Source: Escherichia coli
Lineage (GTDB): Bacteria > Pseudomonadota > Gammaproteobacteria > Enterobacterales > Enterobacteriaceae
Assembly: GCF_001677475.2 (NCBI RefSeq)
Contig: NZ_CP015229.1
Length of the DNA stretch: 64,000 bases
Reading direction: 5' to 3' (one strand)
The number at the start of each line of letters is the position of its first letter. Within the stretch, counting starts at the first letter, position 1. The notes under the pieces were generated by a model, which saw only the letters and a program-made list of their open reading frames with translations, ran no database searches and was not told the DNA's origin. Positions 1 to 4,496 of the stretch are shown piece by piece. Made by a program: the position numbers and the translations under genes.

Positions 1-440
1 CATACAATGGTGGTGTTATTATTTAAGCCAAAGTAGACATCGTCCGATGATGACTGGCGGCGGAAAGCAACGCCAATGTTTGAGGCCTTGCCAGTGGCTG
101 AAGACGGTATGGCTAACACGGGTTGTTCGGTAGATGTTTTTTCCGCTTTTATTGTCGTTTTCAGTCCTGTAAGCCCATTACAGTTAGCAGGCTTCAATGT
201 AAAGTTTGCCTGGCTCTCGGCACCTTTAGCACGCAATTGATCGAGACGAATATCGGGAATAGTTAGCTTATAGGCGTTCGTTCCTGCATTACTGATGTTT
301 GAACCGCCATAGGGGATCACCGACATATCACAGGTTGGCTGTACGATTGTGGCGATGAACTTTACATCGACATCAACAGCGAACACCGGAGCGGTTAGCA
401 TAAGTGCGCCTAAAGCAAAGGGAATACTTTTCCGTCTCAT
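1..440 (-). CDS. yadM: fimbrial-like subunit, partial (3' end runs off the window edge)
   Basis: Open minus-strand frame from ATG (complement of 438-440) to position 1; N-terminus MRRKSIPFALGALMLTAPVFA is a Sec signal peptide; lies directly downstream of the usher gene in the same operon. Confidence 0.8.
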   Translation of the reverse strand, partial: MRRKSIPFALGALMLTAPVFAVDVDVKFIATIVQPTCDMSVIPYGGSNISNAGTNAYKLTIPDIRLDQLRAKGAESQANFTLKPANCNGLTGLKTTIKAEKTSTEQPVLAIPSSATGKASNIGVAFRRQSSSDDVYFGLNNNTTIV

Positions 441-462
441 AGCTTTTCCAAAATTTGCGGAT

Positions 463-3054
463 TTAGCGAGTCACAGATACCGTACACAGTACGTTATCCA
501 ACAACAGGGACCGGTTGCCACTTTCTTCAGTAGCTGTCATCGGAACCTGATAATGAGCAAGGCAATGCTGAGCTTGTCTGTTCTCATCGAACCAGTTCAC
601 CCGCAACACCCCTTTATCTTCTATACCTCTGATAAAGGCCCGGTTACCCTGGCCGATATAACCAAGGACATTACCTTGTTCATCGGTGACATCTGCGGCA
701 AACGGCAATGGCTGGCCGTCATTGCGGTGTAGGGTCACCATTGCTGAGCGCCCCTGGTCAGTTTCAAAGTTGGTCAGTGTGATAGCACCGTAGCGCGGTA
801 CGGTGCGGGAACTGGTACTTTTTAGCTCGACATCGTTTTCCAGCCCTTTAATATCCAGGCTGATGTTATTTTCCTTGTAAGGCGATGCGGATGAGGAGAT
901 GCCATATCCCCAGCGATCAATGGTATTGTTACCATAGTTTATTCGTGCGCCTGCAGCGCCAGGGGCTTTTACCAGAACCAATGTATCGCTGTCGCTGAAG
1001 CTGTCGCCAGAAAACGTAACTCCTCCCTGATGCAGAACAAAACCGCCGTCAGTGCTTAATGACATCTGACGGTTACTGTCAGTATCTGCACTTGCGGAAG
1101 CAGACAACGTTCCCCAGGGAGATTCGTAACTTATGTAGCCCCCGATATCAGCCAGATCGGTACTGTTTTTATTGATGATGTAATCAGTACTCACGCTGTA
1201 GCTGTATTTACCATCACCGCTGGCACCGTTGGTGCTGGCGCTGAAAGCGTGGCTGCCGTTAAAGTCGGTGTTCATTCGTGCGTCAACGTACTGGAAGCCA
1301 CTTTCACGTCGTTTACCACCAAACAATTTTTCGATAGGAAGGCTGACGCTCAGATAGAAACTATCATCCTGCTCGCCATCTTCATTCCAGGTACGCTGAA
1401 TGGAAGCACTCCAGGAGCCCCAATCCGTCCCTTTGCTGTAGCCCATTGAGTAGTAGCTCCGGCTGCTGCTTCCGCCCCAGTAATCTGTCCAGCTACCGTT
1501 CAGATAAAAAGAACCATAATCTATCTCTTTGAATTTCAACGGTTGATTGAGACTGATCGTAAACTGGTTGCGCAGACGCTGGTAAGTGTTCATCGTCTGC
1601 CGTTCATTGGCGGGTAGATGTTTGGCATCATCCTGTAGATTCAGTGCGTCATTGAGCCCCAGGTAGTTGCTGGTGGAGTAGCGATAAGCGGCAAGATTTA
1701 AAGACGTATTGGTCTCATTAAACATTTTGTTCCATGAGATACGGTAGCTCTGCCCTGTGTAGGTCTTGTCCTCATATATCCTGGCCTGAGATTGCGTCAC
1801 ATCAAACGACACGGCGCCAATTGACGTGTTTACCCCGACCCCTAACAGGAAGGCCTGGTAGTCAGCATCGGTGAGTTGAATGCCGGTGTAGCCAGTAAAG
1901 GTGTTGTTAATGCCGTAATACCATGTACCTTGTAGAAGATTGTAATCATCGCGAAGATCGTCGCGATCAATCTGCCCGCCGCTGATATCCCAGCGACCCA
2001 CGCCAGGGCGCAGCATCTGAATAACGGACGAGAAGGGTTGAGAGAAAGTGCGACGCGAACCATCTGCTTCCTCGATAGTGACTAACAGGTCGTTGCCGTA
2101 GCCGGAAGGGGAAATATCGTCGATGGCGAACTCACCCGGAGGAACGGTGCCTTCATAAATTTTGTAGCCGCCCTGTGTTACGGTAACCTTAGCGTTGCTG
2201 TTAGCAACACCACGGATAACAGGCGCAAATCCGGTCATTGACGGTGGCAACATGCGGTCGTCGCTATACAGGCGTACCCCTTTTATACTAACGGAGTCGA
2301 AAGTTTCCCCGGTTGTATAGGTTTCCCCGACCACTAATTGTGAGCGAATAAATGGCAGTTCACGCTGAAGATAGCTGTTCTGGAAATCCAGATTGCTGCC
2401 AATATCCTGCTGCCAACTGTAGTTACCGTTGCTTCTCAGATGCCAGTTTCCGAGGTTAATACCGGTATTGAAGGCGGTATAAAAAGTCTGGTTTTCGTCG
2501 TTATGCTGCGTGTTGCGCCAGGCATTCATACGATAGGAGAGCATGGCTGCATTTATACCATCCTCCCATAGTGAAGGATCAACATAGCCCTGGTAATTAC
2601 GCATGATCCAGACTTGTGGAACTGTCAGTTCCAGTTTTTGATCGTTAGTATCGAAATAAACCTGTGACTGTGGAATAGCTTTTGCGATATCAAGGCAATC
2701 ATCTGCGCTTTCATTGCGTTTTTGTAATACTGCTTCTCCGTCCCGGAGATCAGGTTGTTTTATATGAAGCTGACTCAGTATTTTTCGCGAAATACAGGCT
2801 TCGGCGTTTCTCTTGCCCACATCAATCATTTCGATGTTCAGGCTGCTGGCGGAAATATTATTGACGTAAACCTTTACGTCATAATTTCCAGGCATTGCCG
2901 GGTTGCCATCAGAATAGCGCGATAAGTCTATTCCTCTGGCGGAAGAGCCCATGAGAAAGCTTGGGTCGTACTCAATCGTCTCTGTTGCATTCGTGCTTTG
3001 GGCATAAATGCAGGAGAAGATAATAGCGATCCTTGTTAATTTACAATGAGCCAT
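463..3054 (-). CDS. htrE: outer-membrane fimbrial usher (PapC/FimD family)
   Basis: 863 aa ORF with usher-type N-terminus and size; position between fimbrial subunit and periplasmic chaperone genes. Confidence 0.93.
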   Translation of the reverse strand: MAHCKLTRIAIIFSCIYAQSTNATETIEYDPSFLMGSSARGIDLSRYSDGNPAMPGNYDVKVYVNNISASSLNIEMIDVGKRNAEACISRKILSQLHIKQPDLRDGEAVLQKRNESADDCLDIAKAIPQSQVYFDTNDQKLELTVPQVWIMRNYQGYVDPSLWEDGINAAMLSYRMNAWRNTQHNDENQTFYTAFNTGINLGNWHLRSNGNYSWQQDIGSNLDFQNSYLQRELPFIRSQLVVGETYTTGETFDSVSIKGVRLYSDDRMLPPSMTGFAPVIRGVANSNAKVTVTQGGYKIYEGTVPPGEFAIDDISPSGYGNDLLVTIEEADGSRRTFSQPFSSVIQMLRPGVGRWDISGGQIDRDDLRDDYNLLQGTWYYGINNTFTGYTGIQLTDADYQAFLLGVGVNTSIGAVSFDVTQSQARIYEDKTYTGQSYRISWNKMFNETNTSLNLAAYRYSTSNYLGLNDALNLQDDAKHLPANERQTMNTYQRLRNQFTISLNQPLKFKEIDYGSFYLNGSWTDYWGGSSSRSYYSMGYSKGTDWGSWSASIQRTWNEDGEQDDSFYLSVSLPIEKLFGGKRRESGFQYVDARMNTDFNGSHAFSASTNGASGDGKYSYSVSTDYIINKNSTDLADIGGYISYESPWGTLSASASADTDSNRQMSLSTDGGFVLHQGGVTFSGDSFSDSDTLVLVKAPGAAGARINYGNNTIDRWGYGISSSASPYKENNISLDIKGLENDVELKSTSSRTVPRYGAITLTNFETDQGRSAMVTLHRNDGQPLPFAADVTDEQGNVLGYIGQGNRAFIRGIEDKGVLRVNWFDENRQAQHCLAHYQVPMTATEESGNRSLLLDNVLCTVSVTR

Positions 3055-3861: not shown

Positions 3862-3917
3862 AAATAAGAGGCTGCAAGCACAGCCTCTTAATACAATTAA
3901 TTCAACTCTAATAAAAA

Positions 3918-4496
3918 TTAATTGTAAGTTAAGGTATAGGTGCTGTTAGTTTTCACATGACCAGAGGTCACGGTGGCATTAGCATCAGACTTCACATAAG
4001 ATGCTTTTAAATGGAAGTTCGCAACATGAGTGGTGGTGTCGAATGCTTCAGTGATCTGGTTGCTCGGGTTATTCACTTCGACCAGATTCAGTGCGCCAGT
4101 ATTATTTACATGGTGCAGAGCGATATCGACATTACCAGCTGGATCCTGAACTGAGCCATCATTACTCAAAGTACCCTGGTTAGAGTTATGGTACATAGAA
4201 CTGAAACTCATGACTGCGTTTTGAGCCGTTGCATTACCTGTCGCACAATCAACTTTAATATTAATATCTTCCGGGAATCCACCTGCAGCAGTTTTGCTCA
4301 TTGCCGGGACATCAGCAATTTGTGCAGTCTGTAGCATAACCGTAACGTCTTTACCGCCACCATTTATTGTCGTTACACAAGTACCAGCGGTAACAAAACC
4401 ACCGATATTCAACTGCCCACCGTCAACACCAGCCATTACTGAAACGGCTGAAAGGGAAGATGCTGCTAATACGATGGCAAGTAGCTTTTTGTTCAT
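3918..4496 (-). CDS. yadN: major fimbrial subunit-like protein
   Basis: 192 aa ORF, signal peptide MNKKLLAIVLAASSLSAVSVMA, GGAG Shine-Dalgarno immediately upstream on minus strand; first gene of the yad operon. Confidence 0.9.
   Translation of the reverse strand: MNKKLLAIVLAASSLSAVSVMAGVDGGQLNIGGFVTAGTCVTTINGGGKDVTVMLQTAQIADVPAMSKTAAGGFPEDINIKVDCATGNATAQNAVMSFSSMYHNSNQGTLSNDGSVQDPAGNVDIALHHVNNTGALNLVEVNNPSNQITEAFDTTTHVANFHLKASYVKSDANATVTSGHVKTNSTYTLTYN

What the first reader, a model, noticed from the sequence alone, without database searches (positions are those of the whole stretch)
1..4496. Cryptic yad chaperone-usher fimbrial operon at the left edge
The only accessory-type locus in the window: major subunit (yadN), PapD-like chaperone (yadV), usher (htrE) and a minor subunit (yadM) are all intact on the minus strand. 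Such operons are usually silenced and vary between strains. The subunit and usher alleles here may determine adhesin specificity.
Basis: partly seen in the sequence, partly recalled or inferred. Interest (0 to 1): 0.35.

Follow-up and report, generated by a model that had tools for sequence, protein, structure and literature searches.

The report
Divergent Yad-type fimbrial operon, non-coli Escherichia
The left edge of the window holds an intact chaperone-usher fimbrial operon in the same chromosomal slot as the E. coli yad operon, but it is a much older and very different version, typical of the cryptic Escherichia lineage now called E. ruysiae; it is an ordinary kind of system in an unusually divergent form.

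Summary
On the minus strand of 1-4496 lie a major fimbrial subunit (3918-4496), a PapD-like chaperone (3103-3831), an usher (463-3054) and the first minor subunit (1-440). The first three are complete. The minor subunit is cut by the window edge at 146 of 186 codons, so "all intact" cannot be shown for it from the window alone.

The interpretation needs correcting:
- This is not an E. coli yad allele. None of 5,426 complete E. coli genomes matches at megablast level.
- Protein identity to E. coli Yad is 59% (usher), 58% (chaperone), 40% (major subunit) and 30-34% (minor subunit). The adjacent folK-dksA DNA is 95.7% identical.
- Synonymous sites in the operon are saturated (pS 0.67-0.86, against 0.02-0.30 in flanking genes) and dN/dS is low. 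These are old, functional alleles, not fast-evolving or decaying ones.
- Identical or near-identical proteins occur in strain H605 (clade IV) and in E. ruysiae.
- A contig 99.99% identical to the window supplies the missing part of the operon. It gives the seven-gene yad/sta layout between folK and panB.
- Receptor specificity would lie in the YadC-like tip adhesin, which is outside the window, not in the usher.

Verdict: a new member of a known kind, of modest interest.

The parts
1..440 (-). 5' part (146 of 186 codons) of the first minor subunit gene, the positional YadM/StaD equivalent, cut by the window edge
   Evidence: Translation has no stop and a signal-peptide-like N-terminus. It is 30% identical to E. 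coli YadM (32-34% for the full length). All 146 residues match the 186-aa protein P0046, seen on 299 contigs. Pfam Fimbrial scores 21.9 bits on the fragment, below the cut-off of 25.6. The best NCBIfam model for the full length is StaD, 118.6 bits against a cut-off of 228.
463..3054 (-). Outer-membrane usher (HtrE/StaC family), 863 aa, complete
   Evidence: Pfam PapC_N, Usher and PapC_C all match. NCBIfam equivalog NF007337 scores 1388 bits against a cut-off of 830. It is 59% identical to E. coli HtrE and 100% identical to the usher of CP089930.1.
3103..3831 (-). PapD-like periplasmic chaperone (YadV/EcpD family), 242 aa; an alternative upstream ATG at 3861 gives 252 aa
   Evidence: Pfam PapD_N and PapD_C match. 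NCBIfam NF007398 scores 360.7 bits against a cut-off of 285. The best solved structure is 5ghu YadV, 3.8e-86. It is 58% identical to E. coli YadV, and the cleft Arg (GTRVIY) and Lys (RIKLFYRP) are conserved in the alignment. The 252-aa form is identical to the 'EcpD' entry of strain H605.
3865..3890 (-). GC-rich 11-bp hairpin followed by a U-rich tract, between the major-subunit and chaperone genes (terminator/attenuator-like)
   Evidence: Found by the terminator scan. An 81-nt fold gives -24.4 kcal/mol, z = -5.1, with 0 of 200 shuffles as stable. Hairpins of unrelated sequence sit at the same position in the E. coli, E. marmotae, KTE114-type and L011 operons.
3918..4496 (-). Major fimbrial subunit (positional YadN/StaA equivalent), 192 aa, complete
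   Evidence: Pfam Fimbrial scores 35.6 bits against 25.6. It is 40% identical to E. coli YadN. The best NCBIfam model is StaA, 119 bits against a cut-off of 230, so below it. The exact sequence is on 59 contigs. A GGAG lies 8 nt before the ATG, and the protein has a two-Cys pattern and a C-terminal ...YTLTYN (read).
4497..5097 (.). 601-bp AT-rich upstream region (28.5% GC); presumed promoter and H-NS target; holds an 18-nt direct repeat at 4782-4799 and 4812-4829
   Evidence: GC content is. The repeat is, with 0 matches expected by chance. The region is not alignable to the E. coli yadN upstream region (19-41% identity). It is 98% conserved in strain E69. There is no Rfam match, and promoter-like hits are no more numerous than in shuffles.
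5098..5144 (-). Last 16 codons of folK, which belong to the divergent block (right-hand boundary)
   Evidence: High identity to E. coli starts at window 5145. The FolK C-terminus differs while the rest is conserved. Identity in 150-bp windows steps up from 0.42 to 0.87-0.89 and then to 0.93-0.95.

Best explanation
Window 1-4496 is the promoter-proximal 60% of a seven-gene classical chaperone-usher fimbrial operon. The gene order is major subunit, chaperone, usher, three minor subunits, two-domain tip adhesin. It occupies the conserved folK-panB slot that holds yad in E. coli and sta in Salmonella.

It belongs to the Yad/Sta family but to a separate, deep allele class. That class is found in cryptic-clade Escherichia (window type = clade IV / E. 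ruysiae), and related but distinct classes occur in E. marmotae and in clade III.

Mechanism, inferred from family membership:
1. Subunits are exported by Sec.
2. The PapD-like chaperone captures them by donor-strand complementation.
3. The chaperone delivers them to the usher, which polymerises them by donor-strand exchange, adhesin first.
4. The result is a YadN-like rod carrying a YadMLK-like tip fibrillum and a YadC-like lectin.
5. A hairpin after the major-subunit gene probably raises the ratio of major-subunit transcript to downstream transcript.
6. The 28.5% GC upstream region probably makes the operon an H-NS-silenced, conditionally expressed locus, as shown for E. coli yad.

The extreme divergence reflects allele age, through either retention of an old polymorphism or an old replacement by recombination through the flanks. 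It does not reflect recent rapid evolution or decay.

Shown here: gene content, intactness, family assignment, locus position, divergence pattern and distribution. Inferred: expression, silencing, assembly, and any receptor.
For: Domains and families:
- Searches (Pfam; NCBIfam): the usher, chaperone, YadK-like and YadC-like proteins pass the curated equivalog cut-offs.
- the closest solved structure to the chaperone is YadV, 5ghu.

Synteny and full operon:
-. L002 is 99.99% identical to the window over 12 kb and shows genes of 192, 242, 863, 186, 194, 192 and 403 aa, followed by panB and panC.

Divergence from E. coli:
- no megablast hit in 5,426 genomes.
- 65% nucleotide identity at the yad locus.
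- protein identities.

Old alleles under purifying selection:
- pS is 0.67-0.86 in the operon, against 0.02-0.30 in dksA, pcnB and panC.
- folK (0.40) and panB (0.50) are intermediate.
- dN/dS is 0.07-0.31 wherever it can be computed.

Deep clades:
-. The window usher is 58-60% identical to all E. coli HtrE clusters, 58% to Salmonella and 61% to Leminorella, while E. coli and Salmonella are 61-64% identical to each other.

Same slot in other lineages:
-. The flanks are 91-96% identical, while the operon is 65-72% identical on its alignable part.

Host lineage:
-, and PMC4700944.

Common regulatory anatomy across allele classes:
- The upstream region is 25-31% GC in all four.
- A hairpin follows the major-subunit gene in all five.

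Published support:
- H-NS repression and serum induction of E. coli yad: PMC13245861.
- Yad corresponds to Sta at the same locus: PMC3559732.
Against: - No expression, assembly or binding data exist for this allele class.
- The major subunit and two minor subunits fall below every curated NCBIfam cut-off.
- No convincing sigma-70 promoter stands out; hits equal the shuffle expectation.
- Some strains of the same clade carry truncated copies: a major subunit split into 92 + 109 aa, a minor subunit of 105 aa, and adhesins of 389/376 aa. The operon is therefore dispensable at least in some strains.
- With synonymous sites saturated, retention of an old polymorphism cannot be told apart from an old import.
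- The species label rests on protein identity to named strains and on core-gene distance, not on whole-genome ANI.
Confidence: 0.8

Rival explanations
1. It is simply a strain-level allele of the E. coli yad operon (yadN-yadV-htrE-yadM), comparable with the allelic variation already catalogued within E. coli.
For: The locus, gene order and families are the same. Many database entries are labelled 'Escherichia coli', and one UniRef name is 'Fimbrial subunit YadN'. E. coli yad is known to vary: minor subunits 60-100% and adhesin 45-100% nucleotide conservation (PMC13245861).
Against: No hit of 80% or better in 5,426 complete E. coli genomes. E. coli usher clusters are 73-88% identical to one another but only 58-60% to this one. 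The core region matches E. coli at 98.7% at best. Identical or near-identical proteins occur in H605 (clade IV) and E. ruysiae (PMC4700944). The only genome-contig hit is CP089930.1, a species-representative genome; whether it stands for a species other than E. coli was not checked.
Confidence: 0.08
2. The divergence arose in place by rapid positive (diversifying) selection on surface-exposed fimbrial proteins after the split from E. coli.
For: Divergence is greatest in the surface-exposed subunits (30-47% identity) and least in the usher and chaperone (58-59%). Fimbrial antigens are classic targets of diversifying selection (general knowledge).
Against: Synonymous sites are saturated in all seven genes, while the flanking genes have pS 0.02-0.30. 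dN/dS is 0.07-0.31, never near or above 1. The non-coding upstream region is also unalignable. Divergence spills into the ends of folK and panB. That points to age or recombination, not protein-level selection alone.
Confidence: 0.05
3. The block is a comparatively recent xenologous replacement. A Yad/Sta-type operon from outside Escherichia was recombined into the folK-panB slot of the clade IV ancestor through the flanking genes.
For: The right-hand boundary is sharp and lies inside folK. GC is 44.7-46% in the operon against 52.5-54% in the flanks. The usher is equidistant from the E. coli, Salmonella and Leminorella homologues. The adhesin gene has a different nearest relative from the usher, so the operon is mosaic.
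Against: No donor was found. The nearest non-Escherichia usher among 5.8 billion proteins is 61% identical, while other Escherichia lineages hold the closest relatives (80%, 78%, 69%), in the two cases checked (the 78% E. marmotae and 69% KTE114-type operons) in the same slot. Low GC and an AT-rich leader are shared by all allele classes, including E. coli's. Identity in panB rises gradually from 77% to 95% rather than in one step.
Confidence: 0.1
4. The operon is a decaying, non-functional remnant.
For: Yad-type operons are not expressed under laboratory conditions in E. coli (PMC3559732, PMC13245861). Some clade members have truncated genes.
Against: All complete genes in the window are open and full length with all domains. 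dN/dS is well below 1. Within the clade the proteins are 97-100% conserved across dozens to hundreds of contigs. The catalytic-cleft residues of the chaperone are retained.
Confidence: 0.03

Closest known systems
E. coli Yad fimbriae (yadN-ecpD/yadV-htrE-yadM-yadL-yadK-yadC)
   Same: Same chromosomal slot between folK and panB. Same seven-gene order. The usher, chaperone, YadK-like and YadC-like proteins pass the same curated NCBIfam equivalog models. Both have an AT-rich leader and a hairpin after the major-subunit gene.
   Different: Protein identity is only 59, 58, 40, 32-34, 38-40, 47 and 50-53% for the usher, chaperone, YadN, YadM, YadL, YadK and YadC equivalents. Synonymous sites are saturated. 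The upstream region is 601 bp against 370 bp and is not alignable. The allele is absent from 5,426 complete E. coli genomes.
Salmonella Sta fimbriae (staABCDEFG)
   Same: Reported as the Salmonella counterpart of Yad at the identical locus (PMC3559732). The best NCBIfam models for the major subunit and the first minor subunit are StaA and StaD.
   Different: The usher is 58% identical, and the StaA and StaD scores are about half the curated cut-offs. The window type is no closer to Sta than to Yad.
The yad-slot operons of E. marmotae (L009) and of clade III Escherichia sp. KTE114 type (L010)
   Same: Same slot and same seven genes. These are the nearest relatives of the usher (78% and 69%) and the chaperone (76% and 62%).
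   Different: The tip adhesin is only 30% and 28% identical, further than E. coli YadC at 53%. Modules have therefore been exchanged.
Type 1 / P pilus assembly machinery (FimC-FimD, PapD-PapC)
   Same: Same domain architecture of chaperone and usher, and the same inferred donor-strand complementation and exchange mechanism. FimC and PapD structures match the chaperone at 1e-30 to 1e-24.
   Different: A different fimbrial clade. There is no invertible promoter switch or recombinase gene nearby. Yad is reported as not phase-variable (PMC13245861).

Membership tests
Classical chaperone-usher fimbrial operon | Periplasmic PapD-like chaperone with both Ig-like domains | tested here: met
   PapD_N 6.9e-45 and PapD_C 9.2e-17. 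The best PDB match is YadV 5ghu, 3.8e-86.
Classical chaperone-usher fimbrial operon | Outer-membrane usher with N-terminal domain, barrel/plug and C-terminal domain | tested here: met
   PapC_N 9.2e-42, Usher 5.6e-156 (profile positions 2-549 of 549) and PapC_C 1.2e-20.
Classical chaperone-usher fimbrial operon | One or more pilin subunits of the Fimbrial (PF00419) family with a signal peptide | tested here: met
   The major subunit scores 35.6 bits against 25.6. The partial minor subunit scores 21.9 bits, below the cut-off, on a truncated sequence. Its full-length form carries PF00419 in the precomputed hits.
Classical chaperone-usher fimbrial operon | Conserved subunit-binding Arg and Lys in the chaperone cleft (PapD Arg8/Lys112 equivalents) | tested here: met
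   GTRVIY (Arg at mature position 8) and RIKLFYRP are conserved in the alignment with E. coli YadV. Their equivalence to the PapD residues is from general knowledge.
Yad/Sta fimbrial type (locus position plus usher phylogeny, the scheme of PMC3559732) | Located between folK and panB | tested here: met
   folK lies at 5098-5577, next to the major-subunit gene. panB follows the adhesin gene in L002, which is 99.99% identical to the window.
Yad/Sta fimbrial type (locus position plus usher phylogeny, the scheme of PMC3559732) | Seven-gene order: major subunit, chaperone, usher, three minor subunits, two-domain adhesin | tested here: met
   (genes of 192, 242, 863, 186, 194, 192 and 403 aa). Only the first three and a half genes are inside the window.
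Yad/Sta fimbrial type (locus position plus usher phylogeny, the scheme of PMC3559732) | Usher groups with HtrE/StaC | tested here: met
   NCBIfam equivalog NF007337 scores 1388 bits against 830; the next model scores 518 bits. All the best database hits are yad-slot or Sta-type ushers. In the NJ tree it forms a third deep branch beside the E. coli and Salmonella groups.
Yad/Sta fimbrial type (locus position plus usher phylogeny, the scheme of PMC3559732) | Subunits reach the curated equivalog scores (StaA/YadN, StaD/YadM, YadL/StaE, YadK, YadC) | tested here: inconclusive
   The YadK-like (225 against 132) and YadC-like (511 against 391) proteins pass. The major subunit (119 against 230), the first minor subunit (119 against 228) and the YadL-like protein (144 against 206) fail, although Sta/Yad models are their best hits.
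E. coli Yad fimbriae in the narrow sense (operational criterion of PMC13245861) | HtrE at least 80% identical over at least 80% of its length to the E. coli reference usher | tested here: not met
   58-60% identical to every E. coli HtrE cluster, and no megablast match in 5,426 genomes. The comparison was not made against HtrE of EC958 specifically.
H-NS-silenced ('cryptic') fimbrial operon | AT-rich regulatory region | tested here: met
   28.5% GC over 601 bp, against 52.5% in the rest of the window. The upstream region is 25-31% GC in all four allele classes.
H-NS-silenced ('cryptic') fimbrial operon | H-NS binding and derepression in an hns mutant | not testable with these tools
   Shown only for E. 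coli K-12, CFT073 and EC958 (PMC13245861). No data exist for this allele.

The most novel reading that the evidence does not exclude
The folK-panB slot is a trans-species hypervariable 'fimbrial type' locus of Escherichia. At least four to six allele classes sit there: the E. coli group, clade IV, clade III, E. marmotae, and unnamed classes seen only in read-archive assemblies. At least some, and perhaps all, of these classes are as old as or older than the Escherichia-Salmonella split. They are maintained and reshuffled module by module, with the adhesin moving independently of the usher, by recombination through the flanks under frequency-dependent selection from hosts, phages or grazers. 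On this reading each Escherichia species or clade carries a private Yad-type fimbria, which would make it a candidate determinant of niche or host range. Identity-threshold virulence screens would wrongly report it as absent.
Probability: 0.35. Interest if true: 0.45.

Novelty: new member of a known kind. Interest (0 to 1): 0.25.

Why it matters
Yad fimbriae were recently shown to be H-NS-repressed, serum-induced and needed for full tissue colonisation by extraintestinal E. coli (PMC13245861). E. ruysiae and E. marmotae are emerging, often misidentified human isolates.

Their genomes carry an intact operon in the yad slot that is too divergent to be found by the 80%-identity or virulence-database screens in common use. 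In the papers I could search, it goes unreported: the E. marmotae and E. ruysiae genome papers I checked do not mention yad at all.

The locus also offers a clean natural example of allele classes far older than the species that carry them. The flanks are 91-96% identical and the insert is saturated at synonymous sites. That could be used to study how adhesin repertoires are maintained and exchanged.

For this window, though, the practical conclusion is modest: a known type of system, correctly spotted, with the wrong species-level label.

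Tried and rejected
- **Megablast of 1-5100 against E. coli genomes:** no hit. This prompted the distant search.
- **Rfam on 1-6000 at E up to 1:** nothing, so no known riboswitch or sRNA lies in the leader.
- **Promoter scan:** the number of hits equals the shuffle expectation, so no promoter is assigned.
- **Plus-strand ORFs 349-732 (127 aa) and 4913-5083 (56 aa):** no Pfam family. I treat them as antisense or AT-rich chance ORFs.
- **A tandem-duplication polymorphism of the 18-nt repeat in strain E69:** suspected and rejected. Both copies are present in E69, with one point change.
- **A recent exchange of the adhesin gene with E. coli:** suspected from an 80.8% blastn segment and rejected. 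That segment is mostly panB-panC, and the best E. coli match over the adhesin gene is 63.9%.
- **PDB sequence search with the YadC-like adhesin:** no hit.
- **First dN/dS script:** timed out and was rerun with a different aligner.
- **First multi-fold call:** failed on a length limit and was rerun.
- **Not done:** structure prediction and fold search, because sequence-level family assignment was unambiguous.

Full report
**1. What is in the sequence**

All the genes below are on the minus strand of window 1-4496.
- A 192-aa gene at 3918-4496.
- A 252-aa ORF at 3103-3861.
- An 863-aa gene at 463-3054.
- An open frame that starts at 440 and runs off the left edge after 146 codons without a stop.

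Pfam assigns these as follows.
- The 192-aa gene matches Fimbrial, 35.6 bits against a cut-off of 25.6.
- The 252-aa ORF matches PapD_N and PapD_C.
- The 863-aa gene matches PapC_N, Usher and PapC_C, with the Usher domain at E = 5.6e-156.

The chaperone most likely starts at the second ATG (3831, 242 aa). That codon follows a GAGG, whereas the first ATG lies in the U-tract of an upstream hairpin. Most database entries use the 242-aa form.

To the right come a 601-bp spacer of 28.5% GC and then folK, pcnB, gluQRS and dksA. So the observed objects are real and at the stated coordinates. The one caveat is that the fourth gene is truncated by the window, not demonstrably intact.

**2. It is not an E. 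coli yad allele**

*Searches against 5,426 complete E. coli genomes*
- Megablast of 1-5100 found nothing.
- The adjacent 5098-9000 matched 5,424 genomes at 90-95.5% identity.
- A sensitive search placed the best E. coli match at the yad locus itself, at about 65% nucleotide identity over 63% of the query.

*Protein identity to the yad genes of one E. coli chromosome (L001)*

| Protein | Identity |
|---|---|
| Usher | 59% |
| Chaperone | 58% |
| Major subunit | 40% |
| First minor subunit | 30-34% |
| FolK | 89% |
| PcnB | 99.6% |

The FolK differences are concentrated in its last 16 residues.

*Position of the block*
- High identity to E. coli begins at window 5145, inside the 3' end of folK.
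- The rest of the window, 5145-64000, is collinear with E. coli at 95-99.7%, apart from two unmatched stretches of 133 and 145 bp.

**3. Recovering the rest of the operon**

The exact major-subunit protein is indexed in 113 blocks of the public assembly collection. One of those contigs (L002, GCA_019136195.1) is 99.99% identical to window 1-12000. It shows the whole operon: genes of 192, 242, 863, 186, 194, 192 and 403 aa, followed by panB and panC. This is the seven-gene yad/sta layout in the folK-panB slot.

Results against the NCBIfam curated models:

| Protein | Best model | Score | Cut-off | Result |
|---|---|---|---|---|
| Usher | NF007337 | 1388 | 830 | pass |
| Chaperone | NF007398 | 361 | 285 | pass |
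| YadK-like | NF011794 | 225 | 132 | pass |
| YadC-like | NF007267 | 511 | 391 | pass |
| Major subunit | StaA | 119 | 230 | fail |
| First minor subunit | StaD | 119 | 228 | fail |
| YadL-like | YadL | 144 | 206 | fail |

For the three that fail, Sta/Yad models are still the best hits. The closest solved structure to the chaperone is E. coli YadV (5ghu, 3.8e-86).

**4. Whose operon is it**

- The window proteins are identical to entries labelled E. coli.
- The 252-aa chaperone ORF is identical to the 'EcpD' entry of strain H605.
- The usher differs at 2 of 863 residues from an E. ruysiae RefSeq protein.
- H605 is listed as cryptic clade IV and KTE114 as clade III in PMC4700944. E. ruysiae comprises clades III and IV (PMC12735186).
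- The only species-representative genome with a close usher is CP089930.1, titled 'E. coli strain E69', 4.44 Mb. Its usher is 100% identical and its DNA is 99.2% identical over 7.2 kb.
- A 20-kb core stretch far from the operon (40000-60000) reaches only 98.7% identity to the best of 5,426 E. coli genomes. By my estimate (not measured here) that is lower than expected for a member of sampled E. coli.

I conclude that the host is a cryptic-clade Escherichia, most likely clade IV / E. ruysiae. I did not compute whole-genome ANI.

**5. The evolutionary pattern**

*Usher homologues*

A protein search with the usher and an identity matrix with an NJ tree give a ladder:

| Identity to window usher | Source |
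|---|---|
| 100% | window type |
| 80% | unnamed read-archive contig |
| 78% | E. marmotae |
| 69% | Escherichia sp. KTE114, clade III |
| 65% | unnamed contig |
| 58-60% | all E. coli HtrE clusters |
| 61% | Leminorella |
| 58% | Salmonella |

The E. coli clusters are 73-88% identical to one another. E. coli and Salmonella ushers are 61-64% identical, so the window type is at least as far from E. coli Yad as Salmonella's homologue is.

*Same slot in other lineages*

The E. marmotae and KTE114-type operons sit in the same slot with the same seven genes. Their flanks are 91.0% and 93.2% identical to the window type, and the E. coli flank is 95.7% identical. The operons are 65-72% identical on the alignable part only.

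*Synonymous and non-synonymous divergence (Nei-Gojobori counts)*
- pS is 0.67-0.86 in all seven operon genes, which is saturated.
- pS is 0.02 in dksA, 0.25 in pcnB and 0.28 in panC.
- folK (0.40) and panB (0.50) are intermediate.
- dN/dS is 0.07-0.31 wherever it can be computed.

These values reject in-place rapid protein evolution and reject pseudogene decay. They indicate allele classes much older than the species that carry them, with divergence leaking into the flanking gene ends.

*Mosaic structure*

The window-type adhesin is 53% identical to E. coli YadC but only 30% and 28% identical to the E. marmotae and clade III adhesins. That is the reverse of the usher and chaperone relationships. 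No E. coli adhesin gene is closer than 63.9% in nucleotide sequence.

*What remains open*

I could not separate long retention of an old polymorphism from an old replacement by recombination through the flanks. The argument against a recent import from another genus is that no donor exists among 5.8 billion proteins. The nearest relatives are all in other Escherichia, in the same slot in the two operons I checked (E. marmotae and KTE114 type).

**6. Regulatory anatomy**

- The upstream spacer is 25-31% GC in all four allele classes, although their sequences cannot be aligned.
- An 11-bp GC-rich hairpin with a U-rich tail lies between the major-subunit and chaperone genes, at 3890-3865 on the minus strand. 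It is part of an 81-nt fold of -24.4 kcal/mol with z = -5.1.
- Hairpins of unrelated sequence occupy the same position in the E. coli, E. marmotae, clade III and L011 operons.
- I read the hairpin as a conserved attenuator or mRNA-stabiliser that raises the ratio of major-subunit transcript. This is known for other chaperone-usher operons (general knowledge) and was not tested here.
- The spacer has no Rfam match and no promoter hit above chance.
- The spacer contains an 18-nt direct repeat 30 bp apart, with 0 expected by chance. Its function is unknown.
- E. coli yad is repressed by H-NS, derepressed more than 100-fold in an hns mutant and induced by serum (PMC13245861). The AT-rich leader here makes the same logic plausible but unproven.

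**7. Mechanism**

From family membership I infer the classical chaperone-usher pathway.
1. Subunits are exported by Sec.
2. The chaperone captures them by donor-strand complementation. The cleft Arg and Lys are conserved.
3. The three-domain usher polymerises them by donor-strand exchange.

The product would be a rod of the 192-aa subunit carrying three minor subunits and a two-domain adhesin. Receptor specificity in this family is assigned to the lectin domain of YadC (PMC13245861).

**8. Novelty and score**

- Yad is described as core-associated in E. coli and as the counterpart of Salmonella Sta at the same locus (PMC3559732).
- Variation within E. coli is documented (PMC13245861).
- I found no paper in the searchable library that describes the yad slot of E. 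ruysiae or E. marmotae.
- The proteins are already in public databases under generic names.

This is therefore a new, uncharacterised member of a known kind, with an instructive but not surprising evolutionary pattern for a surface-antigen locus. Interest: 0.25.

Noticed in passing
window 37474-37606 and 39499-39643: Two short unmatched stretches (133 and 145 bp), in the rpsB-tsf and pyrH-frr spacers, are absent from the E. coli comparison chromosome. From memory they look like ERIC/IRU-type palindromic repeat elements. An Rfam CssrA (RF02798) match at 37553-37662 on the plus strand, 136 bits against a gathering score of 93, overlaps the first.
   Followed up: partly
window 4782-4799 and 4812-4829: An 18-nt direct repeat (ATT[G/T]TAGTGTGTCATTTT), two copies 30 bp apart, lies about 290-330 bp upstream of the major-subunit start. 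None is expected by chance. It is conserved within the clade, with one base change in strain E69, and is absent from the other allele classes. It may be a regulator binding site.
   Followed up: partly
L002 16021-17232 (left of the window), compared with L001, L009 and L010: The tip adhesin of the window-type operon is 53% identical to E. coli YadC but only 28-30% identical to the adhesins of E. marmotae and the clade III type. The usher and chaperone show the opposite relationships. The operon is therefore a mosaic of modules with different histories.
   Followed up: partly
window 5098-5144 (3' end of folK) and L002 17345-18136 (panB): The divergent block spills into the ends of both flanking housekeeping genes. 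The last 16 codons of folK differ from E. coli, and panB has pS 0.50 against 0.28 in panC. This is a hitch-hiking or recombination-breakpoint signature.
   Followed up: yes
window 11000-17000, 51000-53000 and 59000-64000: Identity to the E. coli comparison chromosome dips to 95-96.5% in these stretches, which by position fall around fhuA-fhuB, ldcC and the nlpE-proS end. Elsewhere it is 97-99.7%. This suggests further locally divergent or recombined segments.
   Followed up: no
L002 15825-16020 (left of the window): A 196-bp spacer separates the YadK-like and YadC-like genes, whereas the other junctions in the operon are 12-86 bp. One gene caller placed a 49-aa ORF there in L004.
   Followed up: no
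protein clusters: Some genomes of the same clade carry disrupted copies: a major subunit split into 92 + 109 aa in one E. ruysiae assembly, a 105-aa minor subunit, and adhesins of 389 or 376 aa. The operon is therefore not universally intact in the lineage.
   Followed up: no
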